This document shows, piece after piece, positions 19,456-49,342 of a stretch of 64,000 nt of DNA (the first letter of the stretch is position 1; every line of letters begins with the position of its first letter). Below the pieces are notes generated by a model, which did not search any database, was not told the DNA's origin, and worked only from the letters and a program-made list of their open reading frames with translations. The DNA is from an uncultured Verrucomicrobiota bacterium. Its GTDB lineage: Bacteria; Verrucomicrobiota; Kiritimatiellia; CAIKKV01; CAITUY01. The stretch spans positions 8,287-72,286 of the forward strand of contig CAZTAJ010000004.1 in assembly GCA_964611575.1 (NCBI GenBank), read 5' to 3'. Position numbers and translations under genes: made by a program.

Positions 19456-21242
19456 TTCGACTCCTTGCTTTCTGATGATACGGTATTTGTCCCGTCGGTG
19501 CCGGGCGCCGGCGGCGCGTCGGGCAGAGTCGGGTCAGTCTGATCGAGATACTCCTGCCGATTGGACCGTCCATCCCCATCGGGATCGGCCGCGGGGTCGG
19601 CGACCGTCGCCGTGGACCAGTCCATGAACTTGCCGAACCAGTACATCTCGAACCAGTTGGGCAACCCGTCTCCGTCGGCATCGCCGTATTCGCTGGCCGT
19701 GAACAGGGGCTTGTCGCCGAAGTCGGCCTGCCAGTGCCGCGCCTCCTCGGTCGAGAAGCAATAGAGATCGGCCTGGTCACGGTACGGCCGGTCGGTGACG
19801 GGATCGGGACTCTCCAGCCGCGTGGCTACCTTGCCTCTGCGCACCACTTCCACGGCCACGGGACCGGGCGTCAGCGGCAGGATTTTGGAGAATACGCCCG
19901 CCGGGGCCTCGTAGGGCTCGGTCCGGCCCGGCACGCGGATCGTCGCCGGGCGCGGCAGGATCGTCAGCACCTCCAGAACGCCGTCACCCTTGGAGTAGGC
20001 GCGCTCCTTGAACGGAAACACGCGGGCGCCCAGGCCGTAACGCTTGAAGGTGATATAGATGCGGTCATGGTCGGTGACGGGCTGCCTGCCGGTCTTCCAC
20101 CATTCCGAGAAATAGGCGTTCAGGTCGAAGATCCCGTAGTGCGTCTGATAGCCGGGGGCAAGGCTGGTGTTCTCCGTGTAGTCGTTCCAGGTGACGAACT
20201 GCATGAGGTGGGAATTGTAATCCCGCGCCTTGCGCCAGTTCTCCCGGAAGAGGCGGGTGCCGGAGCGCAAGGCGTCCCCGTGCGTGAAGCCCCACGTGGC
20301 GTTGTCGTACTGGTACCACATCGGCTGGCAGTACTCGCCGCCCACGGCGCGCACGGCCTGGGCGACCTCATCCTCCTCGTCGTAGCCCACGAACGAGCCG
20401 ATGCCCAGTCCGCCCTTTGCCAGTGCGGCGCAGGCAGCCTTGAGGTGGTCGCGTTTGAGCTGGCGTTCCTCCGCCCCCTCCACACGCATGAACAACCCCG
20501 AGATATCGAACTGCCAGACGATCGGCTCGCCCAGCTCACGTGCGAGTTCATCGAAGCGTTTGACCATCGCTTCCCAGCCTTCAGGCGTGGTGCGGACGCG
20601 GCGGGATTTGTTGAACGACGTCTTGGGGTCCACCGGCTCCCCCATGGCCCGGGCGGCGTCGTCGGCGACCTTGCTGACGGAGTAGTAGCCGAAGATCAGG
20701 GGCTTGCCTTCGAACCGTGCCAGCTTGGGGCTTTTCCCGTGGGTGGCGAGCAGCCAGCGCAAGCCCTCCACATCGTTGGAGTCGTAGCAGAGCGTGATGC
20801 CGAAGGGGTAATCCTTCTCCTCCGCCAATTTGAACAGCATGTCGATGACCTGCTGACAGTTCGCCTTCTCCCCGGCCCACATGTCGATCGCAAAGCCGTC
20901 GATGCCGGCGCGCACGGCACGGCGGATCTCCAGATCCATGCTCTCCTCCAGCGAGAGTTGCAGCCCTTCCGGCACCAGCGGCCAGTTGCGCCAGCGTCCG
21001 CCCACGGCATCCTGGTCCTTGCCTGTGTGCCGCGACTTCGATGCATCGTTGGACCGGTGATAGGCCGTGGCGCGGCAGGCCACGGGGTAGCAGCCCATGT
21101 AGTGGGCGTAGACCAGCCGGGGCCGCTTGTCCGGAAGCGGCGGTCCGGCCTGGAGCGTCGCGACGTGCCGCAGACATCCCGCCAGGCAGAGCCCCGCGAT
21201 TCCCACGACCCCCCACGCCACGGTTCGCTTTAACGCCTTCAT
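19452..21242 (-). CDS. lipoprotein GH71/GH99-like glycoside hydrolase with TSP3 repeats, lacking the C-terminal domain (paralog 3)
   Basis: Lipobox 'GLCLAGC'. 'VYAHYMGCYP', 'GIDGFAIDM', 'FVTWNDYTE' and 'DADGDGLPNWFEMYWFG...DPDGDGRSNRQEY' are present. The protein ends about 240 aa earlier than paralogs 1 and 2. Confidence 0.65.
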   Translation of the reverse strand: MKALKRTVAWGVVGIAGLCLAGCLRHVATLQAGPPLPDKRPRLVYAHYMGCYPVACRATAYHRSNDASKSRHTGKDQDAVGGRWRNWPLVPEGLQLSLEESMDLEIRRAVRAGIDGFAIDMWAGEKANCQQVIDMLFKLAEEKDYPFGITLCYDSNDVEGLRWLLATHGKSPKLARFEGKPLIFGYYSVSKVADDAARAMGEPVDPKTSFNKSRRVRTTPEGWEAMVKRFDELARELGEPIVWQFDISGLFMRVEGAEERQLKRDHLKAACAALAKGGLGIGSFVGYDEEDEVAQAVRAVGGEYCQPMWYQYDNATWGFTHGDALRSGTRLFRENWRKARDYNSHLMQFVTWNDYTENTSLAPGYQTHYGIFDLNAYFSEWWKTGRQPVTDHDRIYITFKRYGLGARVFPFKERAYSKGDGVLEVLTILPRPATIRVPGRTEPYEAPAGVFSKILPLTPGPVAVEVVRRGKVATRLESPDPVTDRPYRDQADLYCFSTEEARHWQADFGDKPLFTASEYGDADGDGLPNWFEMYWFGKFMDWSTATVADPAADPDGDGRSNRQEYLDQTDPTLPDAPPAPGTDGTNTVSSESKESK

Positions 21243-21329
21243 GAGACTCCTGCCTTCATTAATCCGCCTGCCCGCGCGCCTTCGCGTAGTTCTGCGGTCT
21301 AAGTTGCCGCCGTCCGCCCAGAACCCTCA

Positions 21330-29730: not shown

Positions 29731-30183
29731 TCAAGGAATATAGGTCACGGTGAAGTGCGCCGCGGCGTTCACGCCGCCACTGTTCAGCAGGTACAAGGTG
29801 ACGGTTTCATCCTTACTGACGGGATCCGCCGTGGACGTCAGCGTGCTGGCCCCCTGAACCCATCCGAAGTTCGCCGGGCCGGATTTCTTGAAGTAGGCCG
29901 TAATCTGCGTTCCCTCACTCCAGGAAATCTGCGCCATGATCGACCCATCGCCGGGCGCCGTGTACGGCCCCATGCTGGCCACCGGCCCAGCGGCAATCAA
30001 CGCCACATCACCGGATCCCAACACCTGGGTCGTCGCCTCCACCACGGGTGCTGCGCTGTTCGTTTCCGTTGCGGCCACCGCGTCGCCGTCATCATCATCG
30101 CCGCCGCTATCGCAGCCCACACAGAACGCCGTCGCGAGAAGACAAACGAAGAGACTAAAGTACATGTACAATCGATTCTTCAT
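29731..30183 (-). CDS. small lipoprotein, function unknown
   Basis: 'LFVCLLATAFCVGCDSGGDDDDGD' gives a lipobox followed by an acidic linker. The remainder is beta-rich. Confidence 0.6.
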   Translation of the reverse strand: MKNRLYMYFSLFVCLLATAFCVGCDSGGDDDDGDAVAATETNSAAPVVEATTQVLGSGDVALIAAGPVASMGPYTAPGDGSIMAQISWSEGTQITAYFKKSGPANFGWVQGASTLTSTADPVSKDETVTLYLLNSGGVNAAAHFTVTYIP

Positions 30184-30339: not shown

Positions 30340-32133
30340 TCAGGGCTTTAGCTCATCGCGATACGGCACCCGGATGCCGTAGGCCTTGGCAACGGCCCTG
30401 ATCTCGGCAAGCACGGATTCCTGCTGCGTGCGGTGGTGTTCGCCGATCAGATCGTAGATCTTCTGCCACGCCCATTGCGTCCGGATCTCCCGGTCACCCG
30501 CGGCCGCCTTTTCAAGATCGATGGTGAACACCATGTCACAGGCGACCTCGCCGGCCTGGCCCGTGGCCTGGAAGACCAACTGCCGCATGTCGCGGGGATA
30601 GCGCGCGAACAACACCAGCGGCTTGTCGAGATACAGATTGCTGGTCAGCCTGGGGAGCGTCTCGGCGGACGCCTGCCCCGCAAACCGGAACCGCACGTCA
30701 TTCAGCACCGGGCGCGCCACTTCACGCATGCGGGTTTCCGCCACGGTCGGAATATCCCAGCGCCCGGTCCGGACGATCGCCGAATCGCCCCGGTTGCGCG
30801 CGCTCAGCAAGTCCAGCAGATACGCATTCGCCCCCGGATAGGTGCCCATCGTAAAAACCGACACCCCGCCCCGGTTTTCCTGGCTGAAAGCCTCGATGAT
30901 CTTCGAGCGATCAGTCAGTCCCACCGTCGCGACCCCGTCACTGATGACCTGCAGAATGACCGGCCGTCCCGGCTGACGCCCGACATCCAGCAGTTCCTTG
31001 AGCGACCCGAAAATATCCGTATTGCCTTCCGATTTCATCTGCCCGATGAACTCGCCCGCCCTCGCTAGGGAATCCGGATTGACCGGCGCCCAGTCCTTGA
31101 AGCACCGGGCGGCCTTGTCCCGGAACTCGACGACATTGAACCGGTCATCCGGGCCCAATTGCGCCAATGACTTGAGCAATCCTTCGCGGCAGAAGTACAG
31201 CTTCTGCTCGGTGATACTGGCCGATGCGTCCTGTACGAACAGCACATCCTTGGCCAGCACCGGCAGGACGTCATCGCCCTTCCGTTTGATCTCGATGCGG
31301 CAGTACAGGTACTGCGGGTCGGCAAGCGACTGATAGACGTACGCATCCGCGCGGAGCAGTTTGTCCAGCCGCTTGAGATTCGCCATGGCCTTTTCGCGTT
31401 CGTCCGGGTCCGACGGGATCCCGGGCGGCGTCGCGCGGGTCGGCGCAAGGCCGCCCGCCCGCCCCCCACCGCCCGCTGGACGCCCCCAGGCAAACCGGGA
31501 GGGATCCCCCAGCGCACCGAAAATGGACAGGTCGGCGGGCCCCTTCCCCAGGTCGGATCGATCCGCCGGTTGAACGACATCCGGGGCGCCCGACAAGCGC
31601 TCGATCTTGGGGGTGTACCGCCGGGGCAAAGCGCTATCCTCATCGCGAACGATCTTCTGCTCGATCTGAAGGATCTCGGCGCGCGGCTGCCAGCGGGGCG
31701 GTTCCGCCGGCGTCGGCTCGCGCAGACTGCGCTCCTCGCCCAGAAGCACGCCGCGCCCCGCGTCGCGCGGTTCGATCAGCGCTTCGTCAATCGGCCGCCG
31801 CAGCGCCGTGGATTCGCCTGCCCCTGCCCCCGTCCCACCGGCAGCCACGACCTCCGGGCGGAACCGGGGGGGGCGCGGCTGGGAGTCCGCACTCTCCGGC
31901 TGCACCCGCACGTCCTGCACCCTCAGAGGACGCCGGACCTCCACCAATCGCTCGCGCACAAAGCCGCCGATGTCAAACCCCGGAAAAATCCAGAGGAGCA
32001 GCAGATGCAGGAGGAGCGATACCAGGACGGCAATGCCGGCCGAGACGAAATGCTGGCGTCGGATGCGCCGCCACACGACGGCGGCGTCAACCGGCGCCGA
32101 TGCGGCACGGAAGTTCAGCCGTTCGTTATTCAT
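30340..32133 (-). CDS. membrane-anchored von Willebrand factor A (VWA_3-like) protein with TonB-like N-terminal anchor and Pro/Arg-rich linker
   Basis: A single TM 'FVSAGIAVLVSLLLHLLLLWIF' carries S39-x3-H43. About 230 aa of Pro/Arg/Gly-rich sequence follows. The VWA MIDAS 'VLFVQDASASI...GNTDI...VISDG' is present, and the tail 'ETLPRLTSNLYLDKPLVLFARYP' is typical of bacterial VWA_3 proteins. Confidence 0.7.
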   Translation of the reverse strand: MNNERLNFRAASAPVDAAVVWRRIRRQHFVSAGIAVLVSLLLHLLLLWIFPGFDIGGFVRERLVEVRRPLRVQDVRVQPESADSQPRPPRFRPEVVAAGGTGAGAGESTALRRPIDEALIEPRDAGRGVLLGEERSLREPTPAEPPRWQPRAEILQIEQKIVRDEDSALPRRYTPKIERLSGAPDVVQPADRSDLGKGPADLSIFGALGDPSRFAWGRPAGGGGRAGGLAPTRATPPGIPSDPDEREKAMANLKRLDKLLRADAYVYQSLADPQYLYCRIEIKRKGDDVLPVLAKDVLFVQDASASITEQKLYFCREGLLKSLAQLGPDDRFNVVEFRDKAARCFKDWAPVNPDSLARAGEFIGQMKSEGNTDIFGSLKELLDVGRQPGRPVILQVISDGVATVGLTDRSKIIEAFSQENRGGVSVFTMGTYPGANAYLLDLLSARNRGDSAIVRTGRWDIPTVAETRMREVARPVLNDVRFRFAGQASAETLPRLTSNLYLDKPLVLFARYPRDMRQLVFQATGQAGEVACDMVFTIDLEKAAAGDREIRTQWAWQKIYDLIGEHHRTQQESVLAEIRAVAKAYGIRVPYRDELKP

Positions 32134-32149
32134 GGGTGTCTCCGCCGTT

Positions 32150-34504
32150 TCATGGTTTCCGGTAACGCTTGGCCCATTCGCTCTCCGGATAGCGTGTCAC
32201 CAGGTCCTTGATCACCTTGCTACTGTCGTCCGCGCGGCCGAGTTGGGCGTAGGCTTGAGCCGCCTCGTGCAGGCATTCCGGGACCAGAACGGGATCATCG
32301 AACAGTATCCCGACGCTGAGGAAGTGTCGCGCGGCTCCCTCCCAGTCGCCCTGGGCCTTGAGCGTGCGGGCCAGCCCCGCATACGACTGGACACGAATCG
32401 CCATCAGCGTCTCCGCCGACGATAGACTCACCGCTTTCTCAAAACACTCGCGCGCTTTGGGATACTCCGCGGCCTGAAGCGCCAGATCGCCCAGTCTCAA
32501 CCAGGCTTCGGCAGCCGCCTGCGTCCTCGCATTCAGCGCCACCGCCTTCTCGAAGGCTGCCCGCGCCTCCGCCGCACGCCCCGCCCCTTGAAACGCCTTG
32601 CCCTGCAGACACCAGGCAATCTGCTGCCACGCCTCTCCCGGAGCCTGCCGGGTCAGCAACGACGCCGACTCGACCGCTTTGACGTAATCCTTGCGGCCCA
32701 GGTGATAGTCGGTGAGCCATTCCAGTAACTCGGGGCCAAAGGTGTTGGTGCCGGCGCTGGCCAGCAACCCCTGCAGGAGGGCGGCCGACTCGTCGGGCTG
32801 CTGGCGCCGCTGCAACACCAGCGCCAGCCGGAAACGCACCCGCGCCTCGAGTTCAGGCGCTGGAGCCGCCTTCAGAGCGCTTCGGAAACCGGCTTCCGCC
32901 TCTTCCAGGCGGCCGCCTTCCTGGCACAGCGCCGCGCTCCAGAAATACGCGTCGGCCAGGTACCGTGACGCCGGATAGCGCCGCACAAGGTCGCGCCAGG
33001 TGGCCAGGGCCTGTTCGTCATGCTTCAGTTGGGTCTCCACCACGGCTTTCTGGTACAGGGCGTCTTCAATGAACCGGCTGGCGGGATACGCCTCAATCAC
33101 CCGGCCCCAGTCGCGCACGGCGGCCTCGCCCTGGCCGGCCTTGCTTTCGCAAAGCCCCGCCGCGAACAGGGCCTGCGGCGCGAGATCGTTGGTCGGGAAG
33201 TCACCGGCCAGCCGCTTGAACCATTCCGCCGCCTGGGGCAGCTCGCCCTTCTTCTGGAGCAGATGCGCCAGCCGGTAGATCGCATCGGCGGCCAGGTCGG
33301 ACCGGGGAAACTTGTCAGCCAGCAACCGGTAGTACTGGACGGCCAGGGCGTCATCCTTCAGCGCCGCGCCGGATTCCGCCAGCAGCCAGTAGGTGTCCTT
33401 CTCGATGCGCGGGTTCGGCGGCAGCGTCCGGGCCTGCTGGATGGCGTCGGCATAGCGGCCCATCTTGAAAAACACGATCGCTTTCTCATACCCGGCCAGG
33501 TCCGCCATCTCGCCCGTCGAAGGTTTCTGAAGCAGGCGGGTATACGTCTGGATGGCGGCATCGTTCTGAACGAGTTGGCGCTCGCAGTTGGCTTTCAGAT
33601 AGAGCCACTCGGCCTCGCGATCGCCGGCGCCGGCCTTCAGCGCCGCGTCGCACACCGCCAGCGCCGCCGCGTACAATCCCGAATGGTGCGACGCCCACGC
33701 CATCTGGAGGCGGGAATCCGCCACCCGTTCATCGCCGGGATAGAGCGTCAACAGCCGCTCATAGGCGCGGGCGCTGGGCTCGAACTGGCGCTGGCGGAAA
33801 TAGAGTTCGCCGAGTTGGAACCAAGCTTCGGCGCCCACGCGCGGTCCCGAGGCATTGGTGGCCGCCAGGCTGTACAGAGCCGCTCCCCGCGGCGACTCGG
33901 GATCGCGCCGCGCGAAAATGTTGCCGAGCGCCAGCGCGGCAAGCGACCGGAAGGGCGAACGGGCGTGCAGGTCCACAATCGTCGCATAAGCCGCGGCCGC
34001 TTCGTTGGTGCGCCCGGCGCGTTCCTGGAGCGATCCGAGCGCATACTGGCAGGCCGCAGCCAGCTCACCGGTGGGGCCCGCCTGGTTCAGTCCCGTGGCC
34101 AGTTGAATGGCGTCCTCCGCGCGACCGGTATCCGCGAGCAACTCCACCCGGCGCAGGCCGGCGCGGAAGCGGTAATCGCCGCCCGACGGCGCCGCGCCCG
34201 AACGCAGGTAGAAACGCTCCGCCTCGTTTGTCCGCCCCAGCGCGCGGCTGCATTCCCCCAGCCGGTAGAGCACCATCGCCTCCTGCGGCGTATGGGTGAC
34301 CTGGGCCAGGGCGAGATCGTATTCCTTGAAGGCCACGTCCCACATGCCGCGGCCGTAGACGCCGTCGGCGAACAGCAATTGCTCGGCGGCATCCAGCGCC
34401 AGGGCCGCCGGCGCAGCCCCCCCCATCAGGCCCAACCCCAGGGCCGCGCACAGCCAGCCGCGACGCCAGGCTTGAACGCGGGATTGGGGTTGGCCGATGT
34501 TCAT
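32150..34504 (-). CDS. secreted tetratricopeptide-repeat protein (multiple YbgF/CpoB-like TPR units)
   Basis: It has a signal peptide, then many 34-aa Ala/Leu/Tyr-rich repeats ('A.Y.LG......G....A...F..L...YP'). ATGA overlap with exbD. Confidence 0.75.
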   Translation of the reverse strand: MNIGQPQSRVQAWRRGWLCAALGLGLMGGAAPAALALDAAEQLLFADGVYGRGMWDVAFKEYDLALAQVTHTPQEAMVLYRLGECSRALGRTNEAERFYLRSGAAPSGGDYRFRAGLRRVELLADTGRAEDAIQLATGLNQAGPTGELAAACQYALGSLQERAGRTNEAAAAYATIVDLHARSPFRSLAALALGNIFARRDPESPRGAALYSLAATNASGPRVGAEAWFQLGELYFRQRQFEPSARAYERLLTLYPGDERVADSRLQMAWASHHSGLYAAALAVCDAALKAGAGDREAEWLYLKANCERQLVQNDAAIQTYTRLLQKPSTGEMADLAGYEKAIVFFKMGRYADAIQQARTLPPNPRIEKDTYWLLAESGAALKDDALAVQYYRLLADKFPRSDLAADAIYRLAHLLQKKGELPQAAEWFKRLAGDFPTNDLAPQALFAAGLCESKAGQGEAAVRDWGRVIEAYPASRFIEDALYQKAVVETQLKHDEQALATWRDLVRRYPASRYLADAYFWSAALCQEGGRLEEAEAGFRSALKAAPAPELEARVRFRLALVLQRRQQPDESAALLQGLLASAGTNTFGPELLEWLTDYHLGRKDYVKAVESASLLTRQAPGEAWQQIAWCLQGKAFQGAGRAAEARAAFEKAVALNARTQAAAEAWLRLGDLALQAAEYPKARECFEKAVSLSSAETLMAIRVQSYAGLARTLKAQGDWEGAARHFLSVGILFDDPVLVPECLHEAAQAYAQLGRADDSSKVIKDLVTRYPESEWAKRYRKP

Positions 34505-34929
34505 GAGCCGGGGGTTTTTTCAGCAATGCCGGCGGCGAAGGAGATGTTCCAGATATCCGCCCGGCGGCACAGATCCAGCACCCGGATGACGTGCTCGTAG
34601 GCCGTTTGCCGATCCGCCCGGATCAGCACGGGCTGGCCCGGAAAGAGCTTCACCAGCCGGTTCATCAGTTCGCCGAGTTCCCCATCGTCCAGACGGCGTC
34701 CGTTGACGCTGGTCGTGCCGTCCTTGAGCACGTTCAGGATGATCTCTCCCGGCAGGCGCTGTCCGATCGCCGCGGTGGAGGCGGTCGGCAGCGTGACGTC
34801 AATCTCAGCCTCCCACTGTGTGAAGATCTGGCTTGTCACGAAGAAGCACAGCAGCAGGAAGACGACATCGATCATCGGCGCGAGTTGGAATCCGACCGGG
34901 TCGGGCTTGTATTTGCCGCGGAAGTTCAT
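34501..34929 (-). CDS. exbD: biopolymer transport protein ExbD/TolR
   Basis: 'QLAPMIDVVFLLLCFF' TM with the conserved Asp. 'VNGRRL' and 'PVLIRADRQTAYEHVIRVLDLC' are present. Confidence 0.85.
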   Translation of the reverse strand: MNFRGKYKPDPVGFQLAPMIDVVFLLLCFFVTSQIFTQWEAEIDVTLPTASTAAIGQRLPGEIILNVLKDGTTSVNGRRLDDGELGELMNRLVKLFPGQPVLIRADRQTAYEHVIRVLDLCRRADIWNISFAAGIAEKTPGS

Positions 34930-35696
34930 GCGCCTTTGTTCCTGAGCATGGCGTTCATCAACTGGGCGGAAGCGGCTTCCAGGTCCGCAACCAGCCGCGA
35001 GGAGCGGCCGCGGAAGTAGGCGTAGAAGATCATGGCCGGGATGCCGATGATCAGGCCGCCGGCGGTCGTGATCAGGGCCTCGGCAACCCCCGCGGCGAGC
35101 AGCATCGGTTTGGCCTTGGCCAGGTCGAACGCCACGACATTGAAGGCGCGCATCATGCCGAACACGGTGCCGAGCAGGCCGATCATCGGCGCAATCACCG
35201 CCACATCAAGCAGGTACTGGATCTGGCCCTGCAGCACGGCGGCCTGCCGCGCGCCCTCCCCTTCGATCACATCCTTGAGCAGCGCGGCATCGACCCGCCC
35301 CACCGAGCCCGCGTGGTCCAAAGCCGCGACGGCAATCTCGGAGAACGGGCAGGGCCGGTAACTGCAGGCGGTGCGCGCATCGTCCGTGAGCCCCTGCTCC
35401 ACCTTGCTCACCACATCGCGGCGCAGCAGGTCGGGCGCCACGAGATCGCGGCGCAGGACGACGAAGAAGTACACGACGAACGCCACGCCGATCACGGACA
35501 TGACCGCCAGCGGGTACATCAGCACGCCGCCCTTGTCGAACAGTTCGCCCAGCGAGACATGCTGGGCCAGACGGCCGGTCTCGGCCGCCGTGACGGCATT
35601 GGTCTCCCCCAGCGCCGCGCAGGCCGCCAGCGCCACGAGGCATCCGACCCACGCCACACTCATTGTCCGCCCGCAGATTCTTCTCATCGGTCGCAT
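34926..35696 (-). CDS. exbB: MotA/TolQ/ExbB proton-channel protein
   Basis: 'IAPMIGLLGTVFGMMRAF' and 'GVAEALITTAGGLIIGIPAMIFY' are present. The start was set to the ATG at 35696 because the track ORF (to 36173) would overlap argH. The N-terminus looks like a signal peptide. Confidence 0.85.
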   Translation of the reverse strand: MRPMRRICGRTMSVAWVGCLVALAACAALGETNAVTAAETGRLAQHVSLGELFDKGGVLMYPLAVMSVIGVAFVVYFFVVLRRDLVAPDLLRRDVVSKVEQGLTDDARTACSYRPCPFSEIAVAALDHAGSVGRVDAALLKDVIEGEGARQAAVLQGQIQYLLDVAVIAPMIGLLGTVFGMMRAFNVVAFDLAKAKPMLLAAGVAEALITTAGGLIIGIPAMIFYAYFRGRSSRLVADLEAASAQLMNAMLRNKGA

Positions 35697-35743: not shown

Positions 35744-37135
35744 TCACGCCAGCGGGTAGACCACCCCCATGAGGGCGGATACGGCCCGACAGTGATCGCT
35801 CCATTCCCGACATTGCCAGTCCCGCCCGGCTGCCACCCGATCGCGCATGCCCGCGAAGTCCAGACCCGCCGTGGCGCCCAGGTGTGTCTTGTGCGCGATG
35901 GCGCGATGCGGGTCCATGTGCTCCAGTTCGCTCAAGTGATCCTTCACGTGCTGATAGGCATCCCGGAACGGCATCCCCATCGCGACCAACTCGAGGGCGC
36001 GGTCCGTGGCATAAACACCCGGTGTGAAACCGCGCGCCAGGGCTTCCGCATTCACCGTCAGGTTCCTCATCATCAGCGCCATGCCGCTCAGGCACGCCCG
36101 CGTGGTGGCCAGCCCCTCCATGAAGGGCCCCTTCGTTTCCTGCAAGTCGCGATTGTAGCCGCTCGGCAGGCAACGGGCAATGTCTTTGACCGCCGTTTCA
36201 CAGGCCAGCACGCGGGCCACGCGGGCCCTCACCAGCTCAACCACGTCCGGATTGTTCTTCTGCGGCATGATGCTGCTGCCCGTGCCGAACTCCGGCGGCA
36301 ACGCGAAGTAACCGAACTCCGGCATCGTGAAGATCATCAGGTCCTGCGCCAGCCGCGACAACGAGAGCATGACCTGCGACAGGGTCGACAGGATGAGCGA
36401 CTCGATCTTGCCGCGGGCATTGTTGGCGTAGAGCACGTTGTGGATCGGGCGGCTGAACCCGAGCAGCCGCGAGGTGAGTTCGCGGTCAAGCGGCAGCGGA
36501 ACCCCGTAACTGGCGGCCGACCCGAGCGGACACTGGTCGTTGATCTCGTACACGGCCATCAGCAGCGCCGCGTCATCCAACAGGCTCTCGGCATGCGCCG
36601 TGGCCCACAGGCCCACGGAACTCGGCATGGCCGGCTGCATGTGGGTGCGCCCCACCATGGGAACCGCCCGGTGCCGGTGCCCCAGCACGATCAGCGCGTC
36701 GGCCAGGTCGCAGATTTCACCCATGACATGGATCAGCTGTTCCTTGCCATAGAGGCGCAGGTCAACGGCCACCTGGTCATTCCGGCTGCGCCCGGTATGC
36801 ACCTTCTTGCCGAGCTCGCCCAGCCGCGCCGTGAGCGTGCGCTCCACGGCCAGATGCACATCCTGATCGTCGATGGTGATGGCAAAACGCCCCGCCTGGG
36901 CCTGCCGCATGATCGCGCCCAGTTCGCGAATAACGGCGCGACGTTCCCCCACCCTGATGACGGGCGGGCGGACGGGCATGCGGGACAACATGGTGACGTG
37001 GGCGGCCGTCCCGATGCAGTCCACCTGCACCAACCCCAGGTCCAGCTGCAAGTCGCTGCCGGCCGTGAAGTCCAGGACGGCCGAGTCGATCGCCCCGACG
37101 GTCGTTTTGCACATCCGTTTCCGTACCGTGGTCAT
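35744..37135 (-). CDS. argH: argininosuccinate lyase
   Basis: 'GRSRNDQVAVDLRLY' and 'GSSIMPQKNNPDVVELVR' (fumarate-lyase signature) are present. The ATG at 37135 lies 34 nt after the upstream stop. Confidence 0.9.
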   Translation of the reverse strand: MTTVRKRMCKTTVGAIDSAVLDFTAGSDLQLDLGLVQVDCIGTAAHVTMLSRMPVRPPVIRVGERRAVIRELGAIMRQAQAGRFAITIDDQDVHLAVERTLTARLGELGKKVHTGRSRNDQVAVDLRLYGKEQLIHVMGEICDLADALIVLGHRHRAVPMVGRTHMQPAMPSSVGLWATAHAESLLDDAALLMAVYEINDQCPLGSAASYGVPLPLDRELTSRLLGFSRPIHNVLYANNARGKIESLILSTLSQVMLSLSRLAQDLMIFTMPEFGYFALPPEFGTGSSIMPQKNNPDVVELVRARVARVLACETAVKDIARCLPSGYNRDLQETKGPFMEGLATTRACLSGMALMMRNLTVNAEALARGFTPGVYATDRALELVAMGMPFRDAYQHVKDHLSELEHMDPHRAIAHKTHLGATAGLDFAGMRDRVAAGRDWQCREWSDHCRAVSALMGVVYPLA

Positions 37136-37169
37136 CGCCTGTCGCGCCTTCCCAGCGGGCCGCACCCGC

Positions 37170-38519
37170 CTAATCGTTCCCCGTCCGGCCGAATCGTTTT
37201 TCGACGTCATCAACATACGCCTCCAACGGGCTCTTATCAAGCGCCGGGGACGGCCCCGTCAGCACGGCGGGCCCGCCGGTTGACGCCGCCTCCCGCTCGA
37301 AGGCATCCACATAGGTTTCCCGGGCCCGCGTCAACTCCGACAGGGCGACCCATTCCCGCTCGGCCTGCCGGAGGCGCCACCGTAGTCTCCAGGCCGCCGA
37401 ACCGCGCACCAGGCCCTCATAGAAGAAGGCGTACAATTGCCCCACCCGGACCAGTTCGGGAGCCTTCCCGATCGTGAGCGCCTGAACCTGCTGCATTCGC
37501 TCCTCGGCCACCAGACGAACGGCCGCACGCCTCCGCATCGCCACCAGGTCCAGCGGGGCCAGGCGCCGGTCACCGTCGTCCGGCGCCGCGTCGCCCAACT
37601 CCGATGCCGAGACCTCCACGCGCTCCCGCAATTGGCCGAGCATCACGGACGATACCGCGCCAAGGTCTTGGACCACCCGTTCCTGTCGCTTCAGCCAGGC
37701 GGACCACCTCGTTTCAAGCGCCGCGCCGGAGTTGACCCCGGCCAGGGATTGTGCAACCCACCCCGCCGTCACCGGTTCACCCGCCGCGAGCCGGTCAACG
37801 ATCCTTCGCCAGGACTCTCCCTGTTCCTTGAGGGAATCCAGCCACATGACCGTCATGCCGCACAGCGCCCGTGTCCGGTACCAGCGCTCCGGCAGGTTGT
37901 CCCACGACAGCACGGCGGACACCTCGGGCGGCTCCGAATCCGGCAACGTCCCGTGCACAAGCCGCCGGTTCCGGGCGCACAACGCGGGATCCAGATTCTG
38001 CGCCAGCCCCACCGCCAGCCACGACGGGACCCTCGGAGGCCCGCCGCCGGCCCCCCGAGGGCCACGCTCGCGATCCACCACCGCAACCAGGGCCAGGCGA
38101 CACAAGGCGGCGAGCAGATCCTCGTAGTCCAGTGCCGCGTATTCGTTGACGGTCAGGCCGGCACTCAACCGGCCCTCGCGGTACTGGCATTGCACGACGA
38201 TGCCGGCGGTCGAGGAGTCCGCCGGCGCCAGGTGGATGCGCAGCGGCGATTGGCGGGTGAAGGCCAACGGCATCCCGAGCCGACGTTCCACCCGTTCGGC
38301 CATCGCCTCCGCCCAGTGCGTGTATTCTCTCGTCTTGGCCGCATCCGGGCCCGTCACGACGAACCGGCCGCTGGAACTCGTCGTCACATCCGGGCGAGCG
38401 GCCACTGCCGCCGCCGGCCCATCCTGGGCGCCCCCCTTGATCGCTCCCGCCCCGCAGAGCATCAGGACCAGGCATCGAATGACGGCGGGGGCTAACATGG
38501 CATTGACGCTCGATCTCAC
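37170..38519 (-). CDS. secreted hypothetical protein (distant peptidase-MA/DUF1570-like layout without HExxH)
   Basis: Signal peptide 'VIRCLVLMLCGAGAIKG'. 'PSWLAVGLAQNL' resembles the 'P.W..EGLA.Y' block of MA-like domains. A GTGA overlap links it to the upstream gene; an alternative ATG lies at 38498. Confidence 0.5.
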   Translation of the reverse strand: MRSSVNAMLAPAVIRCLVLMLCGAGAIKGGAQDGPAAAVAARPDVTTSSSGRFVVTGPDAAKTREYTHWAEAMAERVERRLGMPLAFTRQSPLRIHLAPADSSTAGIVVQCQYREGRLSAGLTVNEYAALDYEDLLAALCRLALVAVVDRERGPRGAGGGPPRVPSWLAVGLAQNLDPALCARNRRLVHGTLPDSEPPEVSAVLSWDNLPERWYRTRALCGMTVMWLDSLKEQGESWRRIVDRLAAGEPVTAGWVAQSLAGVNSGAALETRWSAWLKRQERVVQDLGAVSSVMLGQLRERVEVSASELGDAAPDDGDRRLAPLDLVAMRRRAAVRLVAEERMQQVQALTIGKAPELVRVGQLYAFFYEGLVRGSAAWRLRWRLRQAEREWVALSELTRARETYVDAFEREAASTGGPAVLTGPSPALDKSPLEAYVDDVEKRFGRTGND

Positions 38520-39217
38520 GGTCCGAACACCAGTTGGGCTCCCGTCTCGTCGAAGGTTACGCTCTTCAGGGAACGCACCATGCCGGTCTGGGCGAGGATG
38601 TCATCGAACCAGTTCCTGAACCAGGGCGTCGTCACGGAGGCCAGCGGCGCCGGCACCGGCAGATGGCCCAGGCGACCTCCTTGGATCACCAGCGTGCCGC
38701 CATCAAACCGTCCGCTCAGTTCACACGACACCGGGATCACGAGATTGGTCAGAACCGTCACCTGCGGCACGGGCATCCAGCGGTGCCACGCCGCCAGCGT
38801 GAACGAACCGGTCTTGAAGTCGATGGACAGGCGTTGAAGCTTGCGCAGCCTGGCCCGCTCGCCCAGAAACCCGTTCATCTCCGCCTCCGTGAAGGTGAGC
38901 TTGATCTCGCGGCGGGCCCGTAGAGCATTCTGCCAGGCGCGCTGTTTCAGTGGAATCTGTTGCACGCCGGCCGGATCGATCTGGAGGGTGGGCGGATGCT
39001 GCACCCAGAAAGCGGCGGCGATCACCCCGCCGCCCGCCAGCAGCAGACCCGCAACGACGATCCGGCGAATGACGGGGCCCCACTCGAAGGTGCTTCGGCC
39101 GGCCAGTTCCCCGAGCGAGGTATGGGTCAGCTCCAGTCGCTTCCCGCATTGGGCGCAGAACACACGGCCCAGGTCGTTCTTGAACCGGCAAAGCTGGCAC
39201 TCAATCTTGATGGCCAT
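38516..39217 (-). CDS. zinc-ribbon membrane protein, function unknown
   Basis: N-terminal 'CQLCRF...CAQCGKRL' zinc ribbon, a TM 'IVVAGLLLAGGGVIAAAFW', and an extracytoplasmic domain of about 150 aa. Confidence 0.6.
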   Translation of the reverse strand: MAIKIECQLCRFKNDLGRVFCAQCGKRLELTHTSLGELAGRSTFEWGPVIRRIVVAGLLLAGGGVIAAAFWVQHPPTLQIDPAGVQQIPLKQRAWQNALRARREIKLTFTEAEMNGFLGERARLRKLQRLSIDFKTGSFTLAAWHRWMPVPQVTVLTNLVIPVSCELSGRFDGGTLVIQGGRLGHLPVPAPLASVTTPWFRNWFDDILAQTGMVRSLKSVTFDETGAQLVFGP

Positions 39218-39219
39218 GG

Positions 39220-39486
39220 TCAGTCCGCCTTCTTGGCGGGTGTGGAGGTGGCCGGGGGCGCGGCCGGAGCACCGGTATCGGCTTTCGCGGCCTTCTTGTA
39301 ACTATCGCTACGGTAGTCCGTCTGATAGAACCCGCTGCCCTTGAAAATGATCCCGGCACCCGTTCCCATCAGGCGCCGCAAGGCCCCCTTGCACTTCGGA
39401 CACCGTTTCAGGGGCGCATCGCTCATGCGCTGAAACTGCTCGAAGGCGTGGTTGCATTTCTTGCATTCGTACTCGTATGTCGGCAT
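39220..39486 (-). CDS. FmdB-family zinc-ribbon protein
   Basis: 'MPTYEYECKKCNHAFEQFQRMSDAPLKRCPKCKG' is the CxxC_CxxC_SSSS signature. ATG at 39486. Confidence 0.8.
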   Translation of the reverse strand: MPTYEYECKKCNHAFEQFQRMSDAPLKRCPKCKGALRRLMGTGAGIIFKGSGFYQTDYRSDSYKKAAKADTGAPAAPPATSTPAKKAD

Positions 39487-39590
39487 CGATCCCACCCCTA
39501 ACCGCACCGGCTTCCAGTGCTGCAGAAAACAAACGGCAGCTTAATCACGCGGCCATGCACTGTCAATCACGCGGCTTGACATCCCGCGGC

Positions 39591-43782: not shown

Positions 43783-45753
43783 TCACCGGGCTGGAGCCTC
43801 CAGACGTGTCCGCCAGAACTGGAAACTGCCGTCAAACAAGACACGCCTCAAGGCGCCCAGGGAACTCGGGGCCAGGGTTTTCCCCATCGCGCGATGCACA
43901 CGGTCGCGCATTTTCCGCAAGTCTTTCAGAAGCAGTCGAACCGCCGCCGGGGAGTCCCCGCCCAGCAACAGGCGCTCCTCCCTCAACTTGATCAGGATGA
44001 TGCCGCACGCCAGCGCCACCTCCCGGCCGAAGGGGTGGCGGCAAGAGGTCTCACCCCACGTAATGAGCCGCTCGGCGGCCCGGGCGATCTGCTTCTGGCT
44101 GGCGATCAGGCTTCGCCGTTTCCGGGCGTCCAATGCCCGCAATTCCGTTTCCATGGCCTTGAACTTGTCCTGAAGGATCATCGAGAAGTGTTCCGGGTCC
44201 TCGCTCCAGCCATACCGGGTCAGCGTCAGGATCTGCCGGCCAACCGTCAGGAAGTCCTTCATGACAGCCTGGCGCTTCGCCAGGAACCGCGCGCCAAGGG
44301 CATCATCGATCTCCCCGATCGAGGCGTTGCCCTTCCAGGCGGCCAGCGCACCGGCCACATAGCCCGGGAAGGAGGCCGCCATGAAATGCGTGCCGCGCGG
44401 ACTCCAGTTGGTGTTGATCACGCCCATGGCCCCATTCTTCGCGAGCTCCGCGGTGAACGACAGCACGTTCGGGAGGCGTTTCTCATACATCGGCATGGCG
44501 AAATGCGACCCGAAACACTTGCTCGCCGGCGAGCCGACGACATCGAAGCCCTTGTCGAGGAAGTAGCGCAGGTACGGATACCCCTTAAACGGCGCCGCGT
44601 CATCGTCGCCGCACAGGTACGCGTCATACTCGGCCCGGAGGTCGGCGGGAAACTTGGCGTCCAGATCGTCCTTGCCGCCGGTCTCCTGCATGGAGGGCGT
44701 CTTCATGCCGGTGAAAACAAACCAGGTTGTCTCGTCGCCGGCATACCGCAAGTACTGCCAGTCATTGATGACGATGTCGCGGGGCAGTCCCTCGCATACC
44801 TCCGGGTAGGCAACCAGCATGTCGGCCCACATCATCATGCGCGCCCCGCGCCGTCGCACCATCCGGTGCACCCGCTTGATGTGCTCCCGGTAGATTCCCC
44901 CGTATCCCAGGCGCGCGTAGCGACCCCGGCAACGGGGGCACTGGCCCGAATACCCCACTTCGTCGAGCCCGGCGTGGATGAACCGGCTCTTTGGGAATGC
45001 CTGCCGGACCCCGTCAATGAGCCGCTCGATGAATTCCAGCGATCGCTTGTCGGATGGACAGAGCACGGCCGACGAATCCGGTTTCTCGCGGAGATCCTTG
45101 ACGTCCGCGTGCTTGAGATAGTTGCCCATGTGGCCGAACGTCTGTGCGGTGGGTATAACCTCGATGAACCAGCGGGTCGCCTCCTCACCGAACTTCCGCC
45201 AGAAGTCCATGGGAAGGGCGTCGGGATGGGCCAGCGTCTCAAGCCCCGGAAAGACCAGTTTGTCGGAAATGTCGAGCAGGAGCGTATTCACCGACAGGGC
45301 CGAGAATTGCGGCAACAGCCCCATCAGGAATTCCGGCGTGTACATGGTGTAGGTCAAGTCCAGGTGGGCGCCCCGCATGGACATGGCGGGCCAGTCCTTC
45401 ATCGAGCCGCGGATGGGACGGACGCCACCCGTCAACGAGGTCGCCCGCGTGTTCATGCCGCGCCACAATCCCTCGACCGTTGAGGCGCGGACCACCATCC
45501 GGTCGCGTGAGGCATCGATCCAAAAGGCCTCCCGGTTCAGCCCGGGGTTGACGTGAATGACAAGGGTGCCGTCCAGCACGCCTTGAATGCCGGCTTCCGG
45601 GTCGTTGCAGACGACCCTGAGTCCCGTCCTCTTCCCCAAATCGGCCCACAAATGTCCATACCCGCCCAGACCGGGAACCGAAATTCTCGACGGCTTCCGA
45701 ATCGAACGCCCCAATCCGGATCGGCCTTTCCCGGCATGCTTTCCAGTGCTCAT
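43783..45753 (-). CDS. GH20-like (beta-N-acetylhexosaminidase-type) TIM-barrel protein
   Basis: 'IRGSMKDWPAMSMRGAHLDLT' and 'RFIHAGLDEVGY' resemble the GH20 'I.D.P...RG..LD' and 'H.GGDE' blocks. No obvious signal peptide. ATGA-type overlap with the upstream gene. Confidence 0.5.
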   Translation of the reverse strand: MSTGKHAGKGRSGLGRSIRKPSRISVPGLGGYGHLWADLGKRTGLRVVCNDPEAGIQGVLDGTLVIHVNPGLNREAFWIDASRDRMVVRASTVEGLWRGMNTRATSLTGGVRPIRGSMKDWPAMSMRGAHLDLTYTMYTPEFLMGLLPQFSALSVNTLLLDISDKLVFPGLETLAHPDALPMDFWRKFGEEATRWFIEVIPTAQTFGHMGNYLKHADVKDLREKPDSSAVLCPSDKRSLEFIERLIDGVRQAFPKSRFIHAGLDEVGYSGQCPRCRGRYARLGYGGIYREHIKRVHRMVRRRGARMMMWADMLVAYPEVCEGLPRDIVINDWQYLRYAGDETTWFVFTGMKTPSMQETGGKDDLDAKFPADLRAEYDAYLCGDDDAAPFKGYPYLRYFLDKGFDVVGSPASKCFGSHFAMPMYEKRLPNVLSFTAELAKNGAMGVINTNWSPRGTHFMAASFPGYVAGALAAWKGNASIGEIDDALGARFLAKRQAVMKDFLTVGRQILTLTRYGWSEDPEHFSMILQDKFKAMETELRALDARKRRSLIASQKQIARAAERLITWGETSCRHPFGREVALACGIILIKLREERLLLGGDSPAAVRLLLKDLRKMRDRVHRAMGKTLAPSSLGALRRVLFDGSFQFWRTRLEAPAR

Positions 45754-46553
45754 TTTCCCAGTAACTCCTTGATGATCGGGCTGATGGATGCGCCGAGCAT
45801 CTCATATCCCTTTGCGGTTGGATGCACGAAATCGGACAGGACATCCCGGCTGATGGACTCGTCCTTCCCCACAAACCGGTCGCCGGGGTCCACAAATCGA
45901 ATGTTGGCATCCTCCTTGGCCAGGCCGGCAATCATGCCGTTCACCTGCTTGATGGGATCCCGGAAACGACGCCAGTGCTTGGTGGACGCCGCATCGGACA
46001 GCGGCAGGATGCCCACCAGGAGGATCCTGGTGTGCGGCAGTTTTTCCCTCAGCCGCCCGCATATAGCCCTGATCCCCGCACTGATTTCCTCGGGCGTATA
46101 CATCACCTTCATCGTGCCCCCGGCGAGAATGTTGTTGGCGCCGATCATCAGGACGACCACCTTCGGCGATAGCCCATCGACGGCCCCATGGTCAAGGCGC
46201 CATAGCACATGCTGGGTCCGGTCGGTGCCGAAGCCCATGTTGACGACATCGTATGTCCCGAAATACCTGTCCCAGGACTCTTTGCCCCTGACATACCTGG
46301 CCTCCGGGTTCCCGGCCCAATAGTGGAAGATTGAGTCGCCGATGAAGACCAGGTCGATGTTGCCCATCCTGGCGCACAGGTCTTTGACCTGCTGCTGGCG
46401 TTCCATCCAATCATACTCTTTGGTCTCGCCGGGACGGGGATTGACCGCGGGGATAGCCGCTTCATTCGTGCCCCCCTGGCCACAGACCGTGGCGGCCCCC
46501 GAGAACGCCACCAACCCAATAACGGTCAACAGCAACGCGCTAGTCTCGATCAT
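45750..46553 (-). CDS. secreted SGNH/GDSL-family esterase (PAF-acetylhydrolase/sialate-O-acetylesterase-like)
   Basis: 'LVFIGDSIFHYW', 'GFGTDRTQHVLWRL', 'VLMIGANN' and 'DFVHPTAKGYE' are present. The ATG at 46553 gives the signal peptide 'MIETSALLLTVIGLVAFSGAA'. Confidence 0.8.
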   Translation of the reverse strand: MIETSALLLTVIGLVAFSGAATVCGQGGTNEAAIPAVNPRPGETKEYDWMERQQQVKDLCARMGNIDLVFIGDSIFHYWAGNPEARYVRGKESWDRYFGTYDVVNMGFGTDRTQHVLWRLDHGAVDGLSPKVVVLMIGANNILAGGTMKVMYTPEEISAGIRAICGRLREKLPHTRILLVGILPLSDAASTKHWRRFRDPIKQVNGMIAGLAKEDANIRFVDPGDRFVGKDESISRDVLSDFVHPTAKGYEMLGASISPIIKELLGK

Positions 46554-47994: not shown

Positions 47995-47997
47995 GGG

Positions 47998-49164: not shown

Positions 49165-49298
49165 GTCATATATATGTTATGCAGCTATTGAGAAGTATCA
49201 ACAGCTCTTATGTCGGATCAGCATATCATAGGACTGACTATTTTCATTGCACAAAGGCACTCTTAAGTGCGTATGCTCCACCATTCCTAATCCGTACC

Positions 49299-49308: not shown

Positions 49309-49342
49309 AGTCACCTGTTAACCTAATCCACAGCCCTCCGGG

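What the first reader, a model, noticed from the sequence alone, without database searches (positions are those of the whole stretch)
30340..35696. exbB-exbD-TPR-VWA module in which a VWA-domain protein appears to take the place of TonB
Four tightly packed genes sit on the minus strand.

- **Coupling:** ATGA overlaps occur at 34926-34929 and 34501-34504, and only 16 nt lie between the TPR stop and the VWA start.
- **No partners:** no TonB C-terminal-domain protein, TolA, TolB, Pal or TonB-dependent receptor is present anywhere in the window.
- **TonB-like N-terminus:** the last gene encodes a short cytoplasmic tail, then one TM helix 'VSLLLHLLLL' with Ser39-x3-His43 (codons at about 32019-32005). 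That is the same S-x3-H spacing that TonB uses to contact ExbB/ExbD. A Pro/Arg/Gly-rich spacer of about 230 aa follows.
- **Different C-terminus:** where a TonB C-terminal domain would be expected, the protein carries a VWA domain with an intact MIDAS (DASAS...T...D).

This suggests a PMF-energised motor that pulls on, or gates, a metal-dependent adhesion domain in the periplasm, with the 784-aa TPR protein as a scaffold. I do not know of a characterised system with this composition.
Basis: partly seen in the sequence, partly recalled or inferred. Interest (0 to 1): 0.75.

Follow-up and report, generated by a model that had tools for sequence, protein, structure and literature searches.

The report
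TonB-like anchored VWA protein with ExbBD motor
A conserved four-gene module in Kiritimatiellota-type bacteria pairs a proton-driven ExbB/ExbD motor and a large TPR protein with a membrane-anchored VWA adhesion-type protein carrying the TonB/TolA motor-docking signature, a kind of "force transducer" proposed from sequence analysis in 2025 but never tested experimentally.

Summary
Four translationally coupled minus-strand genes encode an ExbB/TolQ-like protein, one ExbD/TolR-like protein, a secreted 784-aa TPR protein built of CpoB-like units, and a 597-aa protein. That last protein has a TM helix, a 190-aa Pro/Arg/Gly-rich linker and an ITIH-like VWA domain with an intact MIDAS.

- **Motif:** Ser39-x3-His43 in the helix is invariant in all 76 orthologues whose N-terminus could be read (down to 34% identity).
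- **Linkage from the VWA side:** 48 of 62 informative species-level loci keep exbB-exbD-TPR-VWA colinear.
- **Linkage from the TPR side:** ExbB-ExbD precede the TPR gene in all 73 informative loci where ExbD could be scored. VWA follows in 40 of 62.
- **Partners:** no TonB_C, TolA, TolB, Pal or TonB-dependent receptor was detected in the window.

The idea is not new. A 2025 paper (PMC12204202) proposed "vWA force transducers" next to tolQR and TPR genes in PVC bacteria. Its Tichowtungia prototype shares no sequence with this protein beyond the helix, and its locus has two tolR and two vWA genes. This is therefore a distinct variant of a predicted, uncharacterised class.

The most likely mechanism is TonB/TolA-like force transmission to a MIDAS-bound envelope ligand. 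It may stand in for the TolA that has not been found in these phyla.

The parts
34926..35696 (-). exbB/tolQ-like motor subunit (256 aa). It has an N-terminal signal-peptide-like segment and a periplasmic extension. The conserved 'AEALITTAGGL' segment lies in the last TM region.
   Evidence: Pfam MotA_ExbB, E 1.7e-26. Best NCBIfam hit is tolQ at 77 bits, against exbB at 51 bits; both are below cutoff. PDB sequence search gives TolQ 3.7e-11 and ExbB 1.6e-10. Sequence read.
34501..34929 (-). Single exbD/tolR-like subunit (142 aa) with the TM aspartate (Asp21 in 'PMIDVVF'). Its start overlaps the exbB stop (ATGA).
   Evidence: Pfam ExbD, E 1.8e-22. NCBIfam tolR 54 bits against ExbD 35 bits. Overlap read. 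Exactly one ExbD-like HSP per locus in 48/48 colinear loci.
32150..34504 (-). Secreted 784-aa all-TPR protein made of about seven CpoB/YbgF-like TPR units. Its start overlaps the exbD stop (ATGA). It is the invariant third member of the core triad.
   Evidence: TIGR02795 tol_pal_ybgF scores 176.5 bits (cutoff 90.1) over 7 stretches. BamD/YfiO-like hits also appear. The signal peptide 'AAPAALA/LD' was read. ExbB-ExbD lie directly upstream of all 73 informative TPR loci.
30340..32133 (-). 597-aa putative force transducer: cytoplasmic tail, TM helix, disordered linker and an ITIH-like VWA C-terminal unit.
   Evidence: Pfam VWA_3. 113 near-full-length orthologues. AF2 model: TM helix 17-49, disordered 50-242, folded 243-597.
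31984..32043 (-). TM helix core (residues 31-50) carrying invariant Ser39 (32019-32017) and His43 (32007-32005). This is the TonB/TolA-type motor-docking signature.
   Evidence: S39 and H43 are invariant in A1. The motif is present in 76/76 readable orthologues, including the loci where VWA is unlinked. hhalign aligns only this helix, with S and H in register, to the Tichowtungia vWA transducer.
31897..31929 (-). Candidate 'motor box' (residues 69-79, 'PLRVQDVRVQP'; family consensus L-x-L-x-x-V-x-x-x-P). It is a short alternating hydrophobic stretch about 20 residues after the helix.
   Evidence: Conservation profile. The position and pattern resemble the motor box described for TonB/TolA in PMC12204202. 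AF2 gives no confident structure here, so the assignment is tentative.
31408..31983 (-). Periplasmic linker (residues 51-242), 39% Arg+Pro+Gly and predicted disordered. It carries conserved islands: 'DE..IEPR', 'W148-x-P-R151-x-E-I-L', 'P-R171-R', 'R179' and 'D185'.
   Evidence: Composition. Low pLDDT. Mean column identity is 0.55 for residues 111-190, against 0.29-0.42 elsewhere in the linker. The motifs are retained in unlinked orthologues.
30343..31407 (-). Folded C-terminal unit (residues 243-597). It comprises a VWA domain (296-472) with an invariant MIDAS (D302-x-S304-x-S306, T372, D399), a beta-sandwich (475-539) and a helical tail.
   Evidence: PDB profile search: ITIH4 2.1e-28, ITIH1 2.5e-25. 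Foldseek best hit is ITIH1 6fpy, E 1.2e-22, 349 columns. MIDAS residues are invariant. No VIT domain was detected.

Best explanation
The module encodes a proton-motive-force-driven envelope machine of the Ton/Tol type. In it, the force-transmitting subunit has a VWA domain instead of the TonB/TolA C-terminal domain.

**Proposed mechanism**
1. ExbB and ExbD form the usual inner-membrane stator/rotor. This is inferred from family membership and from the conserved ExbD Asp21.
2. The 597-aa protein docks on the outside of the ExbB pentamer through its single TM helix, using the invariant Ser39/His43 pair as TonB and TolA do (inferred).
3. A short conserved strand after the helix may engage ExbD, as the 'motor box' does (tentative).
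4. The 190-aa Pro/Arg/Gly-rich linker spans the periplasm.
5. The ITIH-like VWA head binds an acidic residue of an envelope partner through its MIDAS metal site. Motor action therefore pulls on that partner, or alters its binding (inferred).
6. The secreted CpoB-like TPR protein is inseparable from exbBD in every locus examined. It is most likely a periplasmic scaffold or regulator, possibly binding the conserved short motifs of the linker (speculative).

**Likely function**
The module is housekeeping-like, lineage-wide and mostly single-locus. TolB-Pal without an identifiable TolA is reported for these phyla. I therefore consider an envelope-maintenance, Tol-like role more likely than nutrient import or gliding. 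Nothing here demonstrates the biological function.
For: - **Domain assignments:**
- **Translational coupling:**
- **Motif conservation:** S39 and H43 are invariant, while the surrounding helix residues vary.
- **Architecture:** TM helix, disordered linker and folded VWA unit. The architecture is fixed: the N-terminal 290 aa occur only in about 124 50%-identity clusters, nearly all 575-615 aa long.
- **Synteny from the VWA side:** 48 colinear, 1 split and 13 unlinked loci out of 62.
- **Synteny from the TPR side:** ExbB-ExbD upstream in 73/73 loci; VWA downstream in 40/62.
- **MIDAS:** invariant.
- **C-terminal domain:** ITIH-like.
- **No canonical partner:** no TonB_C/TolA signal in the protein at E<=1. 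No Ton/Tol/Pal/TBDT component in the window.
- **Independent proposal of the mechanism:** PMC12204202 proposes the same mechanism for another vWA family in Kiritimatiellota, with AF3 complexes. Its supplement reports tolB-pal without TolA in Kiritimatiella glycovorans and 'tolQ-tolR-???- No TolA found' in a Lentisphaerae MAG.
- **Tol-like leaning:** the TPR protein passes the CpoB TPR-domain model, and the motor scores best against tolQ/tolR.
Against: - No complex prediction or experiment exists for this family.
- The motor-box assignment is weak.
- The VWA gene is unlinked from the motor in 21% to 35% of informative loci.
- The motor is about equidistant from solved TolQ/R and ExbB/D, so 'Tol-like' is not established.
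- Only the S and H of the four-residue SHLS motif are present. Positions H+7 and H+11 are Phe and Asp (read).
- Whole genomes were not available, so a canonical TonB/TolA elsewhere in this organism cannot be excluded.
- The ligand of the VWA head is unknown.
Confidence: 0.68

Rival explanations
1. The VWA protein is an independent inner-membrane-anchored periplasmic VWA protein. It would be a Bat-like or ITIH-like scaffold or adhesin that happens to lie downstream of an exbBD-TPR operon. The motor would work with another transducer encoded elsewhere, or with the TPR protein alone.
For: - VWA is absent downstream of the TPR gene in 22 of 62 informative metagenome loci.
- VWA sits among housekeeping genes (rho, tig-clpPX; DUF1015-thrS) in 13 of 62 species loci.
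- The exbB-exbD-TPR triad is the truly invariant unit.
- TM-anchored VWA proteins without any motor are common; the Bat operon is an example (established knowledge).
Against: - An invariant polar Ser-x3-His pair in the middle of a TM helix is kept in unlinked orthologues too. It is hard to explain for a passive anchor, and it is the hallmark of TonB/TolA.
- No alternative S-x3-H protein follows the TPR gene where VWA is missing.
- There is no BatA_N or other Bat signature.
- Translational-coupling-like spacing holds in most loci; the median TPR-to-VWA HSP gap is 71 nt.
Confidence: 0.15
2. The module is a surface-motility or adhesion machine, analogous to Agl-Glt with the VWA adhesin CglB. This is the function PMC12204202 speculated on for its vWA transducers.
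For: - VWA domains mediate adhesion.
- In Myxococcus, a TolQR-type motor (AglRQS) drives a complex that ends in the VWA adhesin CglB, as cited in PMC12204202.
- TPR proteins are part of Glt (established knowledge).
Against: - The VWA domain here is tethered to the inner membrane, and no outer-membrane conduit or Glt-like genes lie nearby.
- The module sits between argH and gap-pgk-tpi-secG. It is conserved like a core gene across Kiritimatiellia/Lentisphaerae-type MAGs.
- No gliding-gene homologues were seen in about 2 Mb of related loci. That search was not exhaustive.
Confidence: 0.1
3. The module is a Ton-like import system. The VWA head would engage an outer-membrane transporter, or a substrate-loaded receptor, to energise uptake of glycans or metals.
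For: - The organism is rich in glycoside hydrolases, so energised glycan import would be useful.
- The ExbD hit in the PDB is marginally better to ExbD than to TolR.
Against: - No Plug or TonB-dependent receptor gene occurs in the window or next to the module in any locus inspected.
- There is a single conserved copy, not the multiple paralogues typical of TonB.
- The partner TPR protein is CpoB-like.
Confidence: 0.07

Closest known systems
'vWA force transducers' predicted in PMC12204202 (Mol Biol Evol 2025, msaf138); prototype is the pair of 474/476-aa proteins of Tichowtungia aerotolerans (Kiritimatiellota)
   Same: - N-terminal TM helix with Ser-x3-His.
- Disordered linker with a putative motor box.
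- C-terminal vWA fold.
- Lies next to tolQ-like, tolR-like and TPR genes in PVC bacteria.
- No experimental data.
   Different: - No sequence similarity beyond the TM helix (BLASTP E>=2; hhalign aligns only residues 20-50).
- The prototype locus has two heterologous tolR genes and two tandem vWA transducers. Here there is one of each.
- The prototype genes are described as lying downstream of TPR-tolQ-tolR-tolR. Here the order is tolQ-tolR-TPR-VWA.
- This head is ITIH-like with a canonical DxSxS MIDAS. The prototype sequence shows 'DADK' at the corresponding place (read).
- The prototype type is absent from the window and from about 2 Mb of related loci.
TonB-ExbB-ExbD (Ton system)
   Same: - ExbB/ExbD-family motor.
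- Transducer with a short cytoplasmic tail, a single TM helix with Ser-x3-His, and a Pro-rich periplasmic spacer.
   Different: - No TonB_C domain and no TonB box partner (TBDT) detected.
- The head is a 350-aa VWA unit.
- An obligatory TPR partner gene is present.
TolQ-TolR-TolA with CpoB (Tol-Pal system)
   Same: - The motor scores best against tolQ/tolR models.
- The transducer has a TolA-like topology.
- A CpoB-type TPR protein is encoded in the same operon.
- Housekeeping-like conservation.
   Different: - No TolA domain III, and no tolB or pal in the locus.
- The TPR protein is three times longer than CpoB and lacks its N-terminal coiled-coil domain.
- All NCBIfam Tol scores for the motor are below the trusted cutoffs.
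Inter-alpha-trypsin-inhibitor heavy chains and bacterial VIT-VWA proteins
   Same: Best sequence and fold match of residues 287-531: VWA with MIDAS plus the flanking beta-sandwich. TIGR03788 aligns over residues 292-591.
   Different: - No VIT domain.
- The N-terminus is replaced by the TM helix and linker.
- The protein is tethered to the inner membrane rather than secreted or sortase-anchored.
BatA-BatE aerotolerance operon (TM-anchored VWA proteins plus TPR protein)
   Same: Membrane-anchored VWA proteins encoded with a TPR protein.
   Different: - No BatA_N domain, no MoxR/DUF58 genes and no paired VWA genes.
- Bat loci have no ExbBD motor and no S-x3-H helix (established knowledge).
- Only a weak BatC hit, 2.4e-5 against a cutoff of 175 bits.

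Membership tests
TonB/TolA force transducers | N-terminal single TM helix with the Ser-x3-His motor-binding motif | tested here: met
   S39/H43 are invariant in 38 aligned sequences and in 76/76 loci. The L and S of the full SHLS motif are not conserved: F50 and D54, read.
TonB/TolA force transducers | Periplasm-spanning Pro-rich or helical domain II | tested here: met
   Residues 51-242 are predicted disordered and are 13% Pro, 13.5% Arg and 12.5% Gly.
TonB/TolA force transducers | Motor box (short beta-strand after the helix that binds ExbD/TolR) | tested here: inconclusive
   A conserved L-x-L-x-x-V-x-x-x-P lies at residues 70-79. AF2 gives no confident strand for the monomer.
TonB/TolA force transducers | C-terminal TonB_C / TolA domain III | tested here: not met
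   No TonB_C, TonB_2, TolA or TonB_N hit even at E<=1. The C-terminus is a VWA unit.
TonB/TolA force transducers | Physical docking of the helix on the ExbB/TolQ pentamer | not testable with these tools
   No multimer prediction was available.
vWA force transducers (PMC12204202) | TM helix with conserved His, plus a disordered linker and a vWA C-terminal domain | tested here: met
vWA force transducers (PMC12204202) | Synteny with tolQ-like, tolR-like and TPR genes | tested here: met
   48/62 loci are colinear. There is one tolR rather than a pair, and the TPR gene lies between the motor and the VWA gene.
vWA force transducers (PMC12204202) | Sequence homology to the Tichowtungia prototype (the paper's family was collected by homology) | tested here: not met
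   BLASTP best E = 2.0. hhalign gives 12% probability, over the TM helix only.
MotA/TolQ/ExbB and ExbD/TolR motor | Pfam PF01618 and PF02472 above gathering score, plus the TM Asp in ExbD | tested here: met
   92.8 bits (cutoff 22.9) and 80.2 bits (cutoff 25.4). Asp21 confirmed.
CpoB/YbgF | C-terminal TPR domain (TIGR02795) | tested here: met
   176.5 bits against a cutoff of 90.1, summed over 7 stretches.
CpoB/YbgF | N-terminal trimerising coiled coil, about 260 aa in size, encoded next to pal | tested here: not met
   No such Pfam hit among 19 families. The full-length CpoB model NF008068 scores 80 bits against a cutoff of 383. The protein is 784 aa, and there is no pal in the window.
ITIH / VIT-VWA proteins | VIT domain N-terminal to the VWA domain | tested here: not met
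   No VIT or VIT_2 hit. The distant VIT-VWA relatives P0114-P0119 do carry PF08487.
Anti-phage defence systems with MotAB-like motors (e.g. Zorya) | Match to PADLOC models | tested here: not met
   No hit for any of the four proteins.

The most novel reading that the evidence does not exclude
This VWA protein is the functional replacement of TolA in Kiritimatiellota/Lentisphaerota-type bacteria. A TolQR-like motor, with a giant CpoB-like partner, would act on the envelope through a metal-ion-dependent (MIDAS), force-sensitive VWA-ligand bond. That bond would replace the beta-strand augmentation used by TolA and TonB. The target might be TolB-Pal, which the 2025 catalogue found in these phyla without a TolA. 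It would be an integrin-style mechanosensitive bond inside a bacterial periplasm, driven by a 5:2 motor.
Probability: 0.25. Interest if true: 0.8.

Novelty: new variant of a known kind. Interest (0 to 1): 0.6.

Why it matters
Ton and Tol are the two textbook ways in which Gram-negative bacteria carry inner-membrane energy to the outer membrane. Both use the same small C-terminal domain.

A lineage-wide system that keeps the motor and the docking helix but swaps the business end for an integrin-like, metal-dependent VWA domain would show that the 5:2 motor platform is modular. It would also give a natural system for studying force-regulated MIDAS binding in bacteria. And it could explain how PVC lineages that lack a recognisable TolA stabilise their outer membrane.

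The family is small, has a fixed architecture and sits in a clean operon. That makes it experimentally tractable: His43, the MIDAS site and the TPR protein can each be mutated.

Tried and rejected
- **Source contigs:** The taxon is inferred only from relatives, which are Kiritimatiellia, Lentisphaerae or 'Verrucomicrobiota' MAGs.
- **Promoter/terminator scan:** not above shuffled expectation, so uninformative.
- **PADLOC:** nothing, so defence-system membership is rejected.
- **Tol versus Ton assignment of the motor:** equivocal. TolQ is slightly better for ExbB, and ExbD slightly better for ExbD.
- **A second ExbD gene, as in the published prototype:** none found.
- **An alternative S-x3-H protein downstream of TPR where VWA is missing:** none found.
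- **Fusions of the N-terminal module to other C-terminal domains:** none; hits are almost all 575-615 aa.
- **Downstream 150-aa putative lipoprotein (29731-30183):** rejected as part of the module. It is not found by tblastn in any of the 80 species loci.
- **Upstream argH block:** possibly part of the machine. It is syntenic, but it moves as a separate block, so it is left as context.


Full report
**1. The observation**

Four minus-strand ORFs lie at 34926-35696, 34501-34929, 32150-34504 and 30340-32133.
- The ATGA start/stop overlaps at 34929-34926 and 34504-34501 are in the sequence.
- So is the 16-nt gap before the last gene, which has a GGAG upstream of the start.
- Pfam assigns MotA_ExbB (E 1.7e-26), ExbD (1.8e-22), a long series of TPR families, and VWA_3 (7.9e-14, residues 296-450).
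- ExbD has the TM aspartate, Asp21. ExbB carries the 'AEALITTAGGL' segment in its last TM region.
- The last protein has Ser39 and His43 in 'AVLVSLLLHLLLLW'. Its MIDAS residues are D302, S304, S306, T372 and D399. Its linker (residues 51-242) is 39% Arg+Pro+Gly.
- About 40 further ORFs across the 64-kb window were scanned against Pfam. None hit TonB_C, TolA, TolB, OmpA/Pal, Plug or a TonB-dependent receptor barrel.
- The module's neighbours are argH upstream. Downstream lie a small putative lipoprotein and then gap-pgk-tpi-secG.

**2. Is the S-x3-H helix meaningful?**

A database search found 113 near-full-length relatives. The few that carry names are Kiritimatiellia, Lentisphaerae or Verrucomicrobia MAGs.
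- In a 38-sequence alignment reaching 34% identity, S39 and H43 are the only invariant residues in the first 139 positions.
- In 80 species-representative loci, every orthologue with a readable N-terminus (76 of 76) has S-x3-H in a hydrophobic helix.
- The 14 orthologues not linked to a motor also keep the motif.
- An invariant polar pair, including a His, in the middle of an otherwise variable TM helix is the signature of TonB and TolA (established knowledge; summarised in PMC12204202).
- Only the S and H of the four-residue SHLS motif are present.

**3. Architecture**

The AF2 model shows three regions:
- a confident TM helix, residues 17-49;
- a disordered stretch, residues 50-242;
- a well-folded unit, residues 243-597, made of VWA 296-472, a beta-sandwich and a helical tail.

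The folded unit is most like inter-alpha-trypsin-inhibitor heavy chains. By sequence profile, ITIH4 scores 2.1e-28 and ITIH1 2.5e-25. By fold, the best hit is 6fpy at E 1.2e-22 over 349 columns. There is no VIT domain and no TonB/TolA signal, even at E<=1.

The linker is not a plain spacer.
- Residues 111-190 are as conserved as the helix, with a mean column identity of 0.55. They carry the motifs 'W-x-P-R-x-E-I-L', 'P-R-R' and a conserved R179.
- These motifs persist in unlinked orthologues.
- A short L-x-L-x-x-V-x-x-x-P stretch at residues 70-79 is a candidate motor box. It is unconfirmed.

The N-terminal 290 residues find only about 124 clusters among 1.84 billion representatives. Nearly all are 575-615 aa, so the architecture is fixed and the family is small.

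**4. Gene neighbourhood, from both directions**

Starting from the VWA protein, 62 loci had enough upstream DNA:
- 48 have exbB-exbD-TPR-VWA colinear, always with a single exbD;
- one has a 5.6-kb insertion between exbD and the TPR gene;
- 13 have the VWA gene among unrelated housekeeping genes, either rho and tig-clpPX or DUF1015 and thrS.

Starting from the TPR protein, 80 metagenome loci were fetched:
- ExbB-ExbD precede the TPR gene in all 73 informative cases;
- VWA follows in 40 of 62;
- where VWA is absent, the downstream genes are heterogeneous, and none encodes another S-x3-H anchor.

So exbB-exbD-TPR is an invariant triad. The VWA gene is attached to it in two-thirds to three-quarters of lineages and relocated in the rest.

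The TPR protein has a signal peptide. It scores 176.5 bits on the CpoB/YbgF TPR-domain model (cutoff 90.1), spread over seven stretches. The motor proteins score best against tolQ and tolR models, though below their cutoffs. Against solved structures the motor is equidistant from Tol and Ton.

**5. What is known**

- These are inner-membrane-tethered vWA proteins with an SHLS-type helix, a motor box and a disordered linker.
- The paper reports AF3 models that dock the helix at the TonB/TolA site.
- It states that no phenotype is known.

The prototype is a tandem pair of 474/476-aa proteins from Tichowtungia aerotolerans.
- I transcribed transducer 1 and compared it. BLASTP finds nothing (best E = 2.0).
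- Profile comparison aligns only the TM helix, with S and H in register.
- That type is absent from the window and from about 2 Mb of related loci.

The present family is therefore a separate lineage of the same idea. It has one tolR, one transducer, the TPR gene between motor and transducer, and an ITIH-like head with a canonical MIDAS.

The same paper's supplement records two further points:
- tolB-pal without an identifiable TolA in Kiritimatiella glycovorans;
- 'tolQ-tolR-???- No TolA found' in a Lentisphaerae MAG.

It is my inference, not a result, that the '???' could be the genes described here.

Two further literature searches found no other description.

**6. Mechanism and rivals**

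- **Best supported (0.68):** a Ton/Tol-type machine in which the VWA protein is the force transducer. The helix docks on ExbB via His43, the linker spans the periplasm, and the MIDAS head holds an acidic envelope ligand. The TPR protein acts as scaffold or regulator.
  - Shown: the parts, their conservation and their linkage.
  - Inferred: docking, force transmission, the ligand and the role of the TPR protein.
- **Preferred function:** I lean to a Tol-like envelope-maintenance role. The reasons are the CpoB-like partner, the housekeeping context, the lineage-wide conservation and the reported lack of TolA. This is the least secure step.
- **Rivals:**
  - a passive anchor with an unrelated motor next door (0.15), disfavoured by the invariant S/H pair even in unlinked genes;
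  - a gliding or adhesion machine (0.10);
  - a Ton-like importer (0.07).

**7. Verdict**

The concept has been in the literature since 2025 as an untested prediction, which lowers the novelty. This specific family and locus organisation appear not to have been described, and no member of the class has been studied experimentally. I rate it a new variant of a known (predicted) kind, with interest 0.6.

Noticed in passing
window 35744-39507 (minus strand): An upstream block is syntenic with the exbB-exbD-TPR-VWA module. It comprises Zn_ribbon_8 protein (39220-39507), a 233-aa Zn-ribbon/TM protein (38516-39217), a 449-aa secreted protein with no Pfam hit (37170-38519) and argH (35744-37240). Each gene of the block is found in 24 to 32 of the 38 loci with enough upstream DNA, and the block is missing as a unit in 6. 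Whether the two unknown envelope proteins belong to the machine is open.
   Followed up: partly
L039:969-9870: In one Verrucomicrobiota MAG, exbB-exbD are separated from TPR-VWA by about 5.6 kb of inserted DNA. The insert was not examined.
   Followed up: no
L069, L070, L073, L076, L079, L084 (VWA at about 9.2-11.7 kb): In lineages where the VWA gene is unlinked, it lies directly after a roughly 500-aa gene. In L069 that gene is rho. In L069 and L079 it is followed by tig-clpP-clpX-sized genes, and a secretin gene lies about 5 kb upstream. Only L069 was Pfam-scanned; the other loci were compared by ORF sizes. The MIDAS there reads D-C-S-E-S, so it is still canonical.
   Followed up: partly
window 29731-30183 (minus strand): A 150-aa putative lipoprotein ('...FCVGC/DSGGDDDDGD') lies 157 nt downstream of the VWA gene. 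It is present in near-identical contigs but not detectable in any of the 80 species-level loci.
   Followed up: partly
window 4260-21326 and 43783-56688: The window is dense in glycan-degradation genes. There are three GH71 paralogues, a GH127, a GH20, two very large GH123_N-like proteins, beta-helix proteins and two GDSL lipases, with LacI- and GntR-type regulators. This fits a polysaccharide-degrading PVC bacterium.
   Followed up: no
whole window: Nearly all high-GC3 ORFs are on the minus strand. GC skew is negative in all but two of the 32 2-kb bins, so cumulative skew falls steadily from -0.04 to -1.73. This is consistent with a long co-oriented stretch on one replichore.
   Followed up: no
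window 34926-35696: The ExbB-like protein starts with a signal-peptide-like segment and a roughly 30-aa extension before the first TM helix. This resembles the 'long ExbB' type. The 5' extended ORF up to 36173 overlaps argH and is not coding.
   Followed up: partly
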